Part shown: positions 44,855 through 49,797 of the stretch, one piece after another
How the letters are laid out: the number at the start of each line of letters is the position of its first letter
Numbering within the stretch: the first letter of the stretch is position 1
Source of the DNA: the human T2T-CHM13v2.0 reference genome, Homo sapiens
Length of the DNA: 64,000 nt
Assembly: GCF_009914755.1 (NCBI RefSeq)
Contig: NC_060925.1
Reading direction: 5' to 3' (one strand)
Translations under genes and position numbers: made by a program
Notes under the pieces: generated by a model
What the model saw: only the letters and a program-made list of their open reading frames with translations
The model's database searches: none
Told to the model about the DNA's origin: nothing

Positions 44855-45184
44855 TCATATTAGAATAAGATCAGCTGACCAAATATTAATATTAACTAAG
44901 GTACTTTTAAACATTGTAAAACATTGTTCTGATTCGATGAAAGTTGTACTCTCTAAAGATTTTAATAATTGGACTTGAGGTAATCTATAACACTCGGGGA
45001 GAAAAATTAAGAACAGAGAAGATACATACCATAATACTTGACAGATTTTGAAAGCACTTAAAGCACTTATGGTCTCTTTTGGTGAAATCTCAATTACTTT
45101 AAAAAGCTATGAGTTTGCATTTTTCTGCTTCACATTTTTTTTTTCAAATTTCTTGCTTCATTGTCTATGTCTGTAGGATCCTTT

Positions 45185-46196
45185 TTAATCCCAGACAAAG
45201 CTGTATGGATAGTCAGGTACTTTAAATCTAAAGAGGGAAAGCAGCCGACTGAAGAATATGGCAACAAGACACATACCAGCCAGACACATCATCTTTCTCT
45301 TTCTGATGTTCATCGTAGAGGTGGCAGCCTTGTCTAACAGCACCATTCCCAGGCTAACACACATATTAAACAGGGAAATAATGAATGTTTCTGCTGCAAA
45401 CTGAGCCTGACTAAATTTACTGATATAATGTTTATGTCCTGTGTGAGGGTCCCTTTGGACATATGGTTCTCCTCTTATATAAGTCCACATTTGACCAGAC
45501 GTCATCACAATCACAAAGCACAGAGTTAAAACTTCGCACAAAATTCTGCAAGAAATAGATTTCCTATTCCATTTCAAGAAATACCCAAGTCCACCAATGA
45601 GAGCCAGAAGTATCCCTGGCTTGAGGAGACCATGATAATTTATTTGTAGGCTGTCTGATTCTGACGCTGACATGTGTTCTTTCTGCTACCCATTCAGCCA
45701 TTTGGTCAGCAACAATATCCCTTCCTCTCAAATTATAAATGTCATCTGTTGTAAATTTCCATTGGGCAGAAAAGTGGAAGAAACTCGGAACTGACGTTAC
45801 CTGGAGCGCTTCAAAGACCTCAGGGCTTTCATCATAATCCACCATTGCAAAAAATACCTTTGTGGTGAATGCACCAGGGCGTTGATAGGAATTTGCCAAG
45901 ATCTGAAATTCTTCAGCAGCACCTTTGCACATGACACATGAACTGAACGCGTGGAGAGCAGCAGTAAGCATCACAATAACAGAATAGTTTTTTGGTGCAT
46001 CTAATACAAAATGATAGAACATGGTGTCACTCATTCTTATCACTCTGTCTTTCTTGGTCCAACCCATCAGCTGGCTGACCTTTTTGGCCAACCCCTTCTT
46101 CCATCGGGAAGGATGTGTAGGAACCCCGGGAGCCACGAATAACAGGGCCACCACTATGGTCAAAAGTAGACGCCAAAGCCACCACACTTCTGCCAT
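45185..46196 (-). pseudogene. Intronless MAGT1-like (OST3/OST6 family oxidoreductase) retrocopy with a single 4-bp frameshift
   Basis: Two overlapping minus ORFs give KVSQLM.W, NYSVIVM, CVMCK, EEFQILANS, FFAMVDYDE, then MTSGQMW, SQAQFAAET, LGMVLL, YPYSF, collinear with MAGT1 as recalled. No introns and no internal stops in the homologous frames. The frame break is ATTTATTT at 45638-45645. The signal-peptide-like N-terminus fits MAGT1 better than TUSC3. Confidence 0.93.
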
Positions 46197-46478
46197 ATTT
46201 GCTTACTTCTTTGTGTTATACCACTGTTGCAAAATATGTAAGCCAAAATTTGATCATTTCTTCCTGCAATTAATTTGTCCAAGATTTTTTTCTTTCTATC
46301 TTCTTCAATCCTGGTAAAGAGGCTATATCACAAATTCTTGTTCATGTCCAGTTTACAAGTCATATATTAGAGTTTACAAAATAACCTGTGGAAAAAAATA
46401 CTCTGTAATGAAGGGAGTTTGGGAATTAGTGTTCTGGCTTCAGTCCTGCTGAACGACAGACTTGCAATTAACAAGTCA

Positions 46479-48755
<2,277 letters not shown>

Positions 48756-48799
48756 AAGACAACAAATGTTCATTTAATTTGTAAATCAAGTGAAAGCGC

Positions 48800-49320
48800 T
48801 GCCCTGATGCCCCCCACCTCTCCCAGGCTCGGCCGGCCGCCCCTCGCCTACCCTAAAGGCCTCCGGGGACGCCGCCCGACGCCGCCGCGGTTGCCAAGCG
48901 AAGCGCCCAGGCCGCGTTGGCCGCGGGGGGTTGGGGGGGTAGGGGAGGGGTGGTTGCCTAGCAACCGGTGGTGCCAAACACTGGAGCTCAGAGCGGGGGG
49001 CGCGGAGAGCGAAGCGGGAAAGGAGGTAAGGGAGCTAGGGAAGCGGGGGCGCCCCCTTCCTCCGCGCTGGACCGGGGTACTGATCTAAACCAAAGGCGAT
49101 CATCCTGCGGAGGGGAAGAAAGGGGTTTGACGGGGAACCGGACTGACCCCAGCTCTTCCCACGGGGCTCTCCCTGTCCGGCCTTCCCCTCCAACAGTAGG
49201 CGAGGGCGGAGGGGCGGGAGGGCGTGGCGGCTACCAGACGGGGAGGGGGCCGCCCCGGGGGCCGCCCCCCAGCTCCCCAGTGCCAACAGGCACGCGTCCC
49301 TGGAGACAGAACAGGGCTCC
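48800..49320. promoter_or_regulatory. TEKT2: CpG island / TEKT2 promoter with RFX X-box GTTGCCTAGCAAC (48953-48965), a second GTTGCC half-site (48890) and a G-quadruplex-forming tract (48925-48950)
   Basis: High GC and CpG density; near-palindromic X-box typical of ciliary genes; G6-G7-G4-G4 runs. Confidence 0.85.
48970..49025 (+). other. TEKT2: TEKT2 probable non-coding exon 1
   Basis: Strong donor GAG|gtaagg at 49025/49026 just downstream of the X-box; matching acceptor tgcag| at 49745. The start is approximate. Confidence 0.65.
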
Positions 49321-49797
49321 TGCCCTTAGATCCCCCACGGGGACTGGCCCGCAGCCTGGGGAAGAAAGGAAAGGAAGATCAACAAGGCATGGTTGGCTGG
49401 GGGCAGGTGTGGAAAATGCATTAAGGGCAATTTTTTTCTGCCATCCGCCTACCCCCCAGGCATTTGGCACTTCACACACACTTCGAGGCTTCCGGGACTC
49501 CATTATTCCTTTTTACCTGCTCCAGGACCTGCAAGGTCCAGGGGTTTGTGTCCGCCTGGGGACGGGAGGGAGGGAAACTTAGTTAATACCTCACACAAAG
49601 TTGAGTAAAGCAAGGGCTGTCTCCAAGCAGGCTTCCAGCAGGACAGGGCTCAGAGCAAAATGGACAGGAACAAGTCCTGCGCAGGGGGCGTGTGATCCAG
49701 GAGGTCTCCGGAAAGGTCTCCCGCAGCAGTGTTTTCCCTCTGCAGGTGGTGTCTGTGAACAGGCCTAGGGGTTTCTGACCCTTCTGGTTTCTGTGCC

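What the first reader, a model, noticed from the sequence alone, without database searches (positions are those of the whole stretch)
45185..46196. Ancient MAGT1-like retrogene disabled by a single 4-bp duplication: probable recently lost or polymorphic gene
Seen: the minus strand reads CCT ACA AAT [AAAT] TAT CAT GGT. Deleting one AAAT (plus ATTTATTT, 45638-45645) fuses the two ORFs into 1008 nt = 335 codons plus TAA, reading ...RQPTNYHG..., with strong Kozak (AATATGG) and no other stop or frameshift. It keeps a signal-peptide-like N-terminus, the NYS sequon, the CVMC redox motif, the SVP cis-Pro-like loop and the hydrophobic TM region. Known: MAGT1 (335 aa, X-linked, ...RPPNYAG..., CVVC) and TUSC3 are the oxidoreductase subunits of the STT3B oligosaccharyltransferase. 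By eye against the recalled MAGT1, only about half the residues are identical; a neutrally decaying copy that diverged should carry many stops and indels. Inference: this was a selected, fast-evolving third OST3/6 paralogue that is probably intact in other mammals and was lost late in the human lineage, or still segregates.
Basis: partly seen in the sequence, partly recalled or inferred. Interest (0 to 1): 0.85.

Follow-up and report, generated by a model that had tools for sequence, protein, structure and literature searches.

The report
Broken human copy of MAGT1-like retrogene
This is the frameshifted human remnant of an old intronless copy of the X-linked glycosylation gene MAGT1 that is still an intact gene in monkeys, rabbits, pigs, cattle, whales and elephants, so the human reference genome has lost a third member of this small gene family.

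Summary
On the minus strand, 46196..45185 is an intronless, full-length copy of MAGT1. It is broken only by a tandem AAATAAAT at 45638-45645; skipping one AAAT gives 335 codons plus TAA.

The interpretation also holds in its main points.
- The macaque orthologue reads ...RQPTNYHG..., exactly the predicted read-through.
- 23 "MAGT1-like" protein clusters from all four eutherian superorders, 17 of them full length, form one clade with the human copy (100/100). The clade sits inside eutherian MAGT1 and follows the species tree.
- All 21 members covering the site share a two-codon deletion.
- The clade evolves about 30 times faster than MAGT1 but keeps the CxxC cysteines and 36 invariant columns.
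- Neutral drift to this divergence would give about 8 stops.
- The human genome holds no closer parent.

Two additions. Human alone has an extra in-frame Ala just before CxxC. The frameshift sits exactly at the boundary between the luminal domain and the first membrane helix.

Not testable here: whether apes share the lesion, and whether it is fixed in humans. The loss postdates the split from Old World monkeys. I found no paper describing this gene.

The parts
45185..46196 (-). Whole coding region of the MAGT1-derived retrocopy (1012 nt as it stands; 1008 nt = 335 codons + TAA if one AAAT is skipped). RefSeq calls it LOC100128093, magnesium transporter 1 pseudogene.
45642..46196 (-). N-terminal piece, codons 1-185: signal-peptide-like hydrophobic start and the complete luminal thioredoxin-like domain
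   Evidence: It translates without a stop. It aligns to MAGT1 1-185 and to the TUSC3 crystal constructs. Pfam OST3_OST6 and Thioredoxin match.
45638..45645 (-). Tandem AAATAAAT: a 4-bp duplication that shifts the frame between codon 185 (N) and the Tyr codon that follows in the orthologues. This is exactly where the luminal domain ends and the first membrane helix begins.
   Evidence: Macaque and capuchin orthologues read QPTNYHG uninterrupted. In the macaque model the first membrane helix starts at residue 186.
45185..45637 (-). C-terminal piece, 150 codons + TAA: the four-helix membrane region, now out of frame with the start codon
   Evidence: It aligns to MAGT1 186-333. Pfam OST3_OST6 positions 157-294 match.
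45957..45962 (-). GCTGCT: an extra in-frame Ala codon (TAALH versus T-ALH), found only in the human copy
   Evidence: It is absent from 23 retro-clade and 10 MAGT1/TUSC3 sequences.
45927..45938 (-). CVMC, the CxxC active-site motif of the thioredoxin-like domain
   Evidence: Both cysteines are invariant in all 45 sequences of alignment A2.
45564..46196 (-). The open frame as it stands in human: 210 aa = 185 native residues + a 25-residue out-of-frame tail (KLSWSPQARDTSGSHWWTWVFLEME)
44865..45184 (-). Decayed remnant of the MAGT1 3' UTR carried by the retrocopy, running up to a later repeat insertion
   Evidence: It aligns locally to the first ~353 nt of the MAGT1 3' UTR. 0 of 300 shuffles reach the score at 60, 120 or 300 nt. 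It is indel-rich.

Best explanation
The locus is the human remnant of an old retrogene. A spliced MAGT1 mRNA from the X chromosome was reverse-transcribed and inserted between AGO3 and TEKT2. This happened on the eutherian stem lineage, after the split from marsupials and before the placental orders diverged.

The copy became a real gene and is kept as an open frame of about 335 codons in many placental mammals. Where it is intact, it encodes an OST3/OST6-family protein with three parts: a signal peptide, a luminal thioredoxin-like domain with a CxxC active site, and four membrane helices.

By homology, the helices dock it onto the STT3B-type oligosaccharyltransferase. The CxxC domain would hold cysteine-containing substrates so that difficult sequons get N-glycosylated. 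This function is inferred, not shown.

The parent is X-linked, so the most likely selective reason for the copy is supply of this function where or when the X is silent, that is, in male meiosis and after it. This too is inferred.

In the human lineage, after the split from Old World monkeys, a 4-bp tandem duplication shifted the frame at the junction between the luminal domain and the first membrane helix. No full-length protein can be made, and the luminal domain can no longer be anchored in the complex. In the human reference the gene is therefore a unitary pseudogene.
For: **Retrocopy.**
- I assembled the human MAGT1 coding sequence from 10 exons on contig 23, with junctions at CDS nt 102, 272, 390, 531, 672, 762, 826, 901 and 992.
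- The window copy is colinear across all 9 junctions.
- It carries the start of the MAGT1 3' UTR.

**No closer parent.** Searches find only this locus, MAGT1 and TUSC3.

**Intact orthologues.**
- 10 of the 23 hits are 52-93% identical to the human N half. True MAGT1 proteins are 45-51% identical.
- 23 of the 120 listed proteins are of this type, and 17 of those are full length.
- None of the source names carries a 'low quality' prefix.
- Macaque reads RIRQPTNYHG across the break.

**Single origin.**
- The clade of 24 rows has support 100/100 on a stem of 0.70.
- It is nested in eutherian MAGT1 to the exclusion of possum MAGT1 (98/96).
- Its inner topology is Xenarthra, Afrotheria, Laurasiatheria, Euarchontoglires.
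- 21 of the 21 members that cover the site share a two-codon deletion.

**Selection.**
- Against human MAGT1, dN is 0.33-0.36 and dS is 0.71-0.88.
- Simulated neutral drift to about 50% identity gives a mean of 8.2 stops, with P(0 stops) = 0.0004.
- With one aligner (gap open -8 to -12), the CDS has 5 gap events in 1021 columns, only 1 of them not a multiple of 3. The 3' UTR remnant has 9-17 events in about 380 columns, 6-12 of them not multiples of 3.
- 36 of 330 columns are invariant over a clade tree length of 6.37. Under equal rates e^-6.37 predicts about 0.6 (the arithmetic is mine).

**Fold.** The macaque model matches TUSC3 4m90 (TM-score 0.92, rmsd 1.6 A over 150 columns) and 6s7t_H (0.73 over 118 columns).

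**The human copy looks recently functional.**
- It keeps the clade consensus at 69 of 69 columns that are at least 90% conserved.
- Its end branch (0.036) is no longer than macaque's (0.047).
Against: - **No expression or protein data** for any species could be reached. The function and the male-germline rationale are inferred from homology and from the parent's X linkage.
- **Constraint is weak.**
  - The pairwise dN/dS of 0.39-0.48 is taken over a path half of which is the almost unchanging parent. The retrogene's own ratio is therefore probably well above 0.5.
  - CDS nucleotide identity (0.69) is no higher than that of the 3' UTR remnant (0.64-0.72).
- **Some orthologues may be broken.**
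  - 5 of the 23 orthologous models are partial: Aotus 313 aa, Tupaia 311, Dasypus 288, Choloepus 275, Nycticebus 256.
  - One model (P0032) has a garbled stretch of about 25 residues. These may be independent disruptions or just poor models.
- **Many lineages lack it.** No rodent, carnivore, bat, odd-toed ungulate or marsupial member appeared in three searches. The gene is probably dispensable and repeatedly lost. Absence from a word-seeded search of annotated proteins is weak evidence.
- **Orthology is not confirmed by synteny.** It rests on the tree and the shared deletion; no neighbouring genes of the other species were seen.
- **Human status is open.** Whether the human lesion is fixed, and when it arose among apes, is not known from this work.
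Confidence: 0.88

Rival explanations
1. Ordinary dead-on-arrival processed pseudogene of MAGT1 that has drifted neutrally since insertion. Its nearly open frame is chance.
For: RefSeq labels it a pseudogene (hub annotation). The substitution level in the CDS is about the same as in the 3' UTR remnant.
Against: - Simulated neutral drift to this divergence gives about 8 stops, with P(0) = 0.0004.
- 4 of the 5 CDS indel events are multiples of three, while the adjacent UTR is full of frame-breaking indels.
- 17 full-length open orthologues exist across four superorders.
- 36 columns are invariant over a tree length of 6.37.
Confidence: 0.01
2. The human locus is not dead. The single-exon transcript would escape nonsense-mediated decay. 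The 210-codon frame would give a signal-peptide-bearing soluble thioredoxin-like protein without membrane anchor. A second 162-codon frame could possibly supply the membrane part separately.
For: - The frameshift falls exactly at the domain boundary, codon 185/186. The first membrane helix of the macaque model starts at residue 186, so the whole luminal domain with CVMC remains in frame.
- The human copy keeps all 69 strongly conserved clade residues.
- The 162-aa ORF 45185..45673 starts 36 nt before the break.
Against: - The out-of-frame tail has no recognisable retention signal.
- The unique extra Ala next to the active site suggests relaxed constraint on this very domain.
- Human-lineage replacements are no rarer in the N half (4 of 185 codons) than in the C half (5 of 150).
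- No expression data are at hand.
- A frameshift at a domain boundary is what one expects by chance now and then.
Confidence: 0.05
3. The 4-bp duplication is a human polymorphism and an intact allele still segregates. The gene would be in the process of being lost rather than lost.
For: - Both human-specific indels are perfect short tandem duplications, with no later mutation in them.
- There is no excess of amino-acid change on the human branch.
- There are no stops in the out-of-frame C half.
Against: - RefSeq annotates the locus as a pseudogene. The same locus name was used with an older reference build in a 2018 paper (passages seen, PMC6162842). Whether that build carries the same lesion was not checked.
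- Two indels on the human branch, against none on the macaque or capuchin branches, hint at some time without constraint.
- The tests above have almost no power over a few million years.
Confidence: 0.08
4. The frameshift is an assembly or sequencing error in this genome.
For: It is a short AT-rich tandem repeat, a context in which some technologies miscount.
Against: The unit is 4 bp repeated twice, not a homopolymer. The annotation pipeline independently treats the locus as a pseudogene. No tool here could compare assemblies.
Confidence: 0.01

Closest known systems
MAGT1 (X-linked OST3/6-family subunit of the STT3B oligosaccharyltransferase; solved in 6S7T chain H)
   Same: It is the parent gene. 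Both are 335 codons and colinear end to end. They share the domain order of signal peptide, thioredoxin-like domain with CxxC, and four membrane helices. The NYS sequon and the C-terminal YPYSF are shared.
   Different: - The window copy is intronless and autosomal.
- It is only 52% identical in protein.
- The clade lacks two codons at the exon 1/2 junction and has 12 clade-specific replacements at sites invariant in MAGT1/TUSC3, for example SAP to SVP.
- It evolves about 30 times faster: root-to-tip 0.9-1.6 against 0.02-0.07.
- It is frameshifted in human.
TUSC3 (autosomal paralogue of MAGT1; luminal domain solved in 4M8G/4M90)
   Same: Same family and same fold. The macaque orthologue's model superposes on 4m90 with TM-score 0.92.
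   Different: TUSC3 is an old, intron-containing vertebrate duplicate that branches outside all MAGT1. The retro clade branches inside eutherian MAGT1.
Out-of-X retrogenes of mammals (the class described in PMC2276528, of which I saw only the search listing and the start of the abstract; examples such as PGK2 and PDHA2 are recalled, not from a call)
   Same: An X-linked housekeeping parent and an intronless autosomal copy. The copy originated on the eutherian stem and evolves fast.
   Different: Expression in the male germline is not shown here. This one has been lost again in human and apparently in several other orders. I found no paper that lists it.
Unitary pseudogenes of the human lineage (a gene lost with no remaining orthologue; as a class, recalled)
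   Same: Functional orthologues exist in other mammals, there is a single frame-breaking lesion in human, and there is no second copy in the genome.
   Different: Fixation in human and the branch of loss were not tested. Two paralogues (MAGT1, TUSC3) remain, so the biochemical function is not lost.

Membership tests
OST3/OST6 family (Pfam PF04756; MAGT1/TUSC3) | Match to the family profile above the curated cut-off | tested here: met
   The N half scores 123.6 bits and the C half 127.5 bits against a cut-off of 27. Together they cover profile positions 2-149 and 157-294 of 294.
OST3/OST6 family (Pfam PF04756; MAGT1/TUSC3) | Luminal thioredoxin fold with a CxxC active site | tested here: met
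   CVMC lies at 45927-45938. The cysteines are invariant in 45 of 45 sequences. The macaque orthologue's model matches TUSC3 4m90 with TM-score 0.92 and rmsd 1.6 A. The human domain itself was not folded.
OST3/OST6 family (Pfam PF04756; MAGT1/TUSC3) | Four C-terminal membrane helices joined to the luminal domain in one polypeptide | tested here: not met
   The helices are encoded. The macaque model has helices 186-207, 214-239, 258-290 and 295-323, and the human C piece aligns to MAGT1 186-333. In human they are out of frame with the start codon. The human locus is thus a broken member; the orthologues meet the feature.
OST3/OST6 family (Pfam PF04756; MAGT1/TUSC3) | Physical membership of the STT3B oligosaccharyltransferase complex and oxidoreductase activity | not testable with these tools
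   Inferred from homology only.
Processed retrocopy / retrogene | No introns; colinear with the spliced parent mRNA across every exon junction | tested here: met
   The 9 junctions of human MAGT1 were mapped. The copy is continuous across all of them.
Processed retrocopy / retrogene | Carries untranslated parts of the parent mRNA | tested here: met
   3' UTR homology over about 320 nt: 0 of 300 shuffles reach the score. For the 5' UTR, 155 of 300 shuffles reach the score, so no homology is detectable.
Processed retrocopy / retrogene | Poly(A) tail and target-site duplications | not tested
   The A10 run about 45 nt after the stop aligns to an A-rich stretch of the MAGT1 3' UTR, so it is not a tail. 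The true 3' end lies beyond later repeat insertions and was not sought.
Unitary pseudogene (lineage-specific loss of an established gene) | Intact, selected orthologues in other species | tested here: met
   17 full-length orthologous proteins. The clade has 100/100 support. Conservation pattern. Codon-level tests on the orthologues were not possible because no DNA was available.
Unitary pseudogene (lineage-specific loss of an established gene) | Disabling lesion fixed in the species | not testable with these tools
   Only one human genome is at hand.

The most novel reading that the evidence does not exclude
The human allele is a remodelled gene rather than a dead one. The frameshift sits exactly at the luminal-domain/membrane-helix boundary of a single-exon gene, so the transcript would be immune to nonsense-mediated decay. 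It could then produce a soluble, signal-peptide-bearing thioredoxin-like protein of 210 residues, cut loose from the oligosaccharyltransferase.

A milder version is much more likely (about 0.4). Placental mammals other than human and rodents would have a third OST3/6 subunit specific to the male germline. The middle of its active site (CxxC) would be under diversifying selection: 16 different dipeptides occur in 24 sequences.
Probability: 0.05. Interest if true: 0.8.

Novelty: new member of a known kind. Interest (0 to 1): 0.55.

Why it matters
MAGT1 and TUSC3 are treated as the only two OST3/6-type subunits of the mammalian STT3B oligosaccharyltransferase. Both are human disease genes (recalled: XMEN disease and intellectual disability).

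The data here indicate that many placental mammals carry a third subunit, including macaque, pig, cattle and rabbit, which serve as model or farm animals. This third subunit evolves fast and is retrogene-derived. Human has lost it, and mouse and rat apparently have too. That would explain why it has gone unstudied.

Three consequences follow:
- It matters for interpreting MAGT1 or TUSC3 loss in non-rodent models.
- It adds a clean example of an out-of-X retrogene that was kept for about 100 million years (age recalled) and then lost repeatedly.
- It offers a natural experiment on the CxxC dipeptide of an ER oxidoreductase.

It is not a new kind of thing. The class (retrogene, then unitary pseudogene) is well known, and gene-prediction pipelines already label the orthologues 'MAGT1-like'.

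Tried and rejected
- **Literature.** Six full-text searches found no paper on this retrogene:
  - MAGT1 + retrogene (1 unrelated paper).
  - LOC100128093 / MAGT1P1 / MAGT1-like / 'magnesium transporter protein 1-like' / 'MAGT1 pseudogene' / 'magnesium transporter 1 pseudogene' (5 papers held a term, 4 listed). The one paper with LOC100128093 uses it only as a position label for a GWAS SNP (passages read).
  - MAGT1 + retrocop* (0 papers).
  - MAGT1 + 'unitary pseudogene' (1 unrelated paper).
  - MAGT1 with retroposition terms (none of the 20 listed papers holds MAGT1).
  - A search for the title of the out-of-X paper. That paper did not come up, so its main text does not name MAGT1.
- **5' UTR homology.** None detectable.
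- **Indel comparison.** A first comparison with a lenient aligner (gap open -4) overfitted both regions: 49 'events' in the CDS against 36 in the UTR. I replaced it with a scan over penalties.
- **Timing the loss from amino-acid counts.** There are 9 human-lineage, 10 macaque-lineage and 5 unpolarised replacements. With recalled neutral divergences this is compatible with anything from a very recent loss to most of the branch. There is no usable power.
- **Programmed frameshifting.** AAAUAAAU is not a canonical slippery heptamer (recalled rule). I set this aside without a test.
- **Promoter.** There is no CpG-rich promoter at the retrocopy's 5' end (GC 0.35-0.46 over 45850-46599). The nearest GC-rich block is TEKT2's, at about 48700-49450. 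The idea that the copy borrows TEKT2's testis-specific regulation is only a guess.
Full report
**1. The observation**

Read on the minus strand, window 46196..45185 begins with ATG in a good context: A at -3, G at +4, and an in-frame TAA three codons upstream. It runs for 185 codons (window:45642-46196:-) to ...RIRQPTN.

The next bases are AAAT a second time (tandem AAATAAAT, minus-strand 45645..45638). From 45637 another 150 codons follow in the +1 frame down to TAA at 45185-45187.

As the DNA stands, the frames are 210 aa (45564..46196) and 162 aa (45185..45673). Both pieces match Pfam OST3_OST6 far above the cut-off. They align end to end with the solved human MAGT1 chain 6s7t_H, residues 1-185 and 186-333, and the N piece also aligns with the TUSC3 crystal constructs.

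**2. It is a processed copy of MAGT1, and MAGT1 is its closest relative in the human genome**

Six-frame searches of the window's own genome used each half and the chimpanzee MAGT1 protein. Besides the locus itself they found only the exons of MAGT1 on contig 23 and of TUSC3 on contig 8.

I assembled the human MAGT1 coding sequence from ten exons. It is 1008 nt, with junctions at nt 102, 272, 390, 531, 672, 762, 826, 901 and 992. Its translation differs from the chimpanzee protein at one residue.

The window copy is colinear across all nine junctions. It ends ...YPYSFVWD, which corresponds to the product of the exon 9-10 splice (...YPYSFLMS) and not to the read-through of exon 9.

Downstream of the stop, about 320 nt (45184 down to 44865, where a later repeat begins) still align with the first ~353 nt of the MAGT1 3' UTR. 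0 of 300 shuffles reach the observed score at 60, 120 or 300 nt. Upstream of the ATG no homology is left; 155 of 300 shuffles reach the score.

Identity to MAGT1 is 174 of 333 residues (52.3%) and 679 of 999 nucleotides (68.0%). So there is no parent at >90% identity that could explain the divergence.

**3. The copy is an intact gene in many other placental mammals**

A search with the human N half among longer proteins returned 23 hits. Ten of them are much closer to the human sequence than any true MAGT1:

| Source name | Length (aa) | Identity to human N half |
|---|---|---|
| Macaca fascicularis | 334 | 93% |
| Sapajus apella | 334 | 83% |
| Trichechus | 333 | 69% |
| Loxodonta | 327 | 65% |
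| an unnamed record (P0008) | 336 | 61% |
| pig | 337 | 60% |
| Megaptera | 337 | 59% |
| rabbit | 375 | 58% |
| Erinaceus | 341 | 58% |
| Echinops | 340 | 52% |

True MAGT1 proteins are 45-51% identical.

A profile of these ten found 13 more among the 120 proteins listed (286 hits at E <= 1e-30): Orycteropus, Aotus, Bos, Capra, Lemur, Choloepus, Dasypus, Tupaia, two Ochotona, Nycticebus and two unnamed records. A third search, with a profile of the rabbit, pika, tree-shrew and hedgehog members, re-found 20 of the 23 and no new one.

Species names are those given by the sources. None carries a 'low quality protein' prefix. Seventeen of the 23 are full length. Five are partial models (Aotus 313 aa, Tupaia 311, Dasypus 288, Choloepus 275, Nycticebus 256). 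One (P0032, 322 aa) has a garbled stretch of about 25 residues in the second membrane helix.

The macaque protein reads ...RIRQPTNYHGLLK... and the capuchin protein the same.

**4. One origin, on the eutherian stem**

I built a maximum-likelihood tree (IQ-TREE, LG+C20+F+G4, 1000 ultrafast bootstraps and SH-aLRT) of 46 rows:
- the human read-through;
- the 23 'like' proteins;
- 12 MAGT1 and 6 TUSC3 proteins from fish to mammals;
- 4 invertebrate outgroups.

They are mostly invertebrate or unnamed TUSC3-like sequences and MAGT1 isoforms.

The tree puts all 24 retro-type rows in one clade with support 100/100 on a stem of 0.70 changes per site. That clade lies inside eutherian MAGT1, to the exclusion of possum MAGT1 (98/96) and of platypus, bird, reptile, amphibian and fish MAGT1 (the quick tree agrees).

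Within the clade the groups are Xenarthra, Afrotheria, Laurasiatheria and Euarchontoglires. Human is sister to macaque (99/95) and the two New World monkeys are next (100/100). A gene tree that repeats the species tree is what orthologues give.

An independent rare change supports the same conclusion. All 21 retro-type sequences that cover the site lack the two residues (EM in MAGT1, EN in TUSC3) that straddle the exon 1/2 junction of the parent. All ten MAGT1/TUSC3 sequences have them.

Synteny in the other species could not be checked.

**5. Fast evolution, but under selection**

Distances from the therian MAGT1 node to the tips are 0.90-1.59 for the retro clade and 0.02-0.07 for eutherian MAGT1, roughly thirty-fold faster. 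Against human MAGT1, dN is 0.33-0.36 and dS is 0.71-0.88 by four methods, a ratio of 0.39-0.48. The parent hardly changes in protein, so the retrogene's own ratio must be higher. Constraint is weak on average.

Four results show that it is nevertheless real.

(a) *Stops.* In 5000 simulations each, neutral substitution of the MAGT1 coding sequence to about 50% protein identity gave a mean of 8.2 in-frame stops, with no stop in 0.04% of runs. Even at 65% identity the mean was 5.9 stops. The human copy has none.

(b) *Indels.* With one and the same aligner at gap-open penalties of -8 to -12:
- the coding region has 5 gap events in 1021 columns, and only one, the AAAT duplication, is not a multiple of three;
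- the adjoining 3' UTR remnant has 9-17 events in about 380 columns, of which 6-12 are not multiples of three.

A more lenient setting overfits both regions and was discarded.

(c) *Invariant columns.* I compared 22 retro-type sequences (P0032 left out for its garbled stretch) with nine MAGT1/TUSC3 sequences (the ray TUSC3 left out for its aberrant C-terminus).
- 36 of 330 columns are invariant and 69 are at least 90% conserved in the retro clade.
- Under equal rates, the clade's total branch length of 6.37 would leave about 0.6 invariant columns (my arithmetic).
- Columns invariant in the parents are more conserved in the clade than the others (0.724 versus 0.666, Mann-Whitney p = 0.002).
- Twelve parent-invariant sites carry a new residue in at least 80% of the clade, for example A to V in the SAP/SVP loop.

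(d) *Active site and fold.*
- Both active-site cysteines are invariant in all 45 sequences of alignment A2.
- An AlphaFold model of the macaque protein has mean pLDDT 74 and helices at 186-207, 214-239, 258-290 and 295-323.
- Its luminal domain superposes on the TUSC3 crystal structure 4m90 (TM-score 0.92, rmsd 1.6 A, 150 columns).
- Its membrane part superposes on MAGT1 in the OST-B complex 6s7t_H (0.73, 118 columns).

**6. What happened in human**

Human and macaque differ by 24 replacements and one codon. Polarised by the two New World monkeys, 9 replacements fall on the human side, 10 on the macaque side and 5 are undecided. The end branches are 0.036 and 0.047.

Human keeps the clade consensus at all 69 strongly conserved columns. 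Its most conspicuous replacement is W316R, at a Trp present in 17 of 21 other clade members and in MAGT1.

Two indels are peculiar to the human sequence, and both are perfect short tandem duplications:
- the frame-breaking AAAT;
- an extra GCT (Ala) at 45957-45962, seven residues before the first active-site cysteine, at a place where none of the 33 other OST3/6 sequences has an indel.

The frameshift lies between codon 185 and the Tyr that opens the first membrane helix. The human frame therefore still encodes the complete signal peptide and luminal domain, followed by 25 unrelated residues, and none of the membrane anchor. Such a product could not sit in the oligosaccharyltransferase.

The loss happened after the split from Old World monkeys. 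The replacement counts have no power to place it more closely, and no ape sequence or human variation data could be reached.

**7. Mechanism, with what is shown and what is inferred**

*Shown:*
- origin by retroposition from MAGT1;
- age (crown Eutheria at the latest);
- long-term preservation of the frame, of the fold-determining residues and of CxxC;
- the human lesion and its position.

*Inferred from homology:* the intact protein is an alternative OST3/6-type subunit of the STT3B complex with oxidoreductase activity.

*Inferred from the X linkage of the parent and the known out-of-X pattern:* it serves male germ cells when the X is silenced. For that pattern I saw only the listing and the start of the abstract of PMC2276528. 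The locus lies head to head with TEKT2, about 2.8 kb away, and has no GC-rich promoter of its own. This is compatible with that reading but proves nothing.

*Inferred from absence:* three searches found no member in rodents, carnivores, bats, odd-toed ungulates or marsupials. The gene has therefore been lost repeatedly, perhaps because autosomal TUSC3 can cover for it.

**8. Novelty**

Annotation pipelines already name the human locus a MAGT1 pseudogene and the orthologues 'MAGT1-like'. I found no paper that recognises them as one ancient retrogene or the human locus as its unitary pseudogene. The only paper naming LOC100128093 uses it as a map label.

The finding is a new, well-supported member of a known kind: an out-of-X retrogene that was later lost. 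It is not a new kind of thing. It will interest people working on the oligosaccharyltransferase, because the two species in which nearly all the work is done, human and mouse, appear to be among those that lack it.

Noticed in passing
window 45930-45935 (the two middle codons of CVMC) and the same columns in P0003-P0012, P0026-P0035, P0038, P0039, P0047: The two residues between the active-site cysteines are hypervariable in the retro clade. There are 16 different dipeptides in 24 sequences: VM, VA, AT, VT, EI, VI, TM, SL, LT, EP, AP, TT, IM, DA, GN, AN. In the aligned parents, MAGT1 has VV in 4 of 7 (also IV, LV and GV) and TUSC3 has SV in 3 of 3. This could mean relaxed or diversifying selection on redox properties.
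   Followed up: partly
codons 34-35 of the retrocopy (about window 46092-46097), against MAGT1 CDS nt 102: The two-codon deletion shared by the whole retro clade sits exactly on the parent's exon 1/exon 2 junction. The source mRNA may have used slightly different splice sites, rather than the copy suffering a later deletion.
   Followed up: no
protein P0032 (unnamed record, sister to the humpback whale protein), residues aligned to human 222-247: A stretch of about 25 residues does not align with any relative and then returns to register. This looks like a pair of frameshifts or sequence errors, and possibly an independent disruption in a cetacean.
   Followed up: no
L009 (G000 contig 23, MAGT1 exon 9) and P0016: Reading through the end of MAGT1 exon 9 gives ...YPYRY. 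This is the C-terminus of the elephant UniRef model P0016. The canonical ...YPYSFLMS needs the short exon 10, found in L029. P0016 is therefore probably a model that missed the last exon.
   Followed up: partly
window 46479-46776: An Alu-like repeat lies about 280 bp upstream of the retrocopy's ATG. It matches repeats in the MAGT1 3' region at 77-84% identity. A primate-specific insertion this close to the start could have affected the promoter before or after the loss.
   Followed up: no
window 45185-45673, minus strand: A 162-codon ATG-started frame begins 36 nt before the break and runs through the whole membrane region in the original frame. The two halves of the gene are thus each covered by an ORF with its own ATG. 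This is probably chance.
   Followed up: no
window 48700-49450: The only GC-rich block near the retrocopy (GC 0.66-0.71) is at the TEKT2 start. TEKT2 is head to head with the retrocopy, about 2.8 kb from its ATG (and the hub annotation).
   Followed up: no
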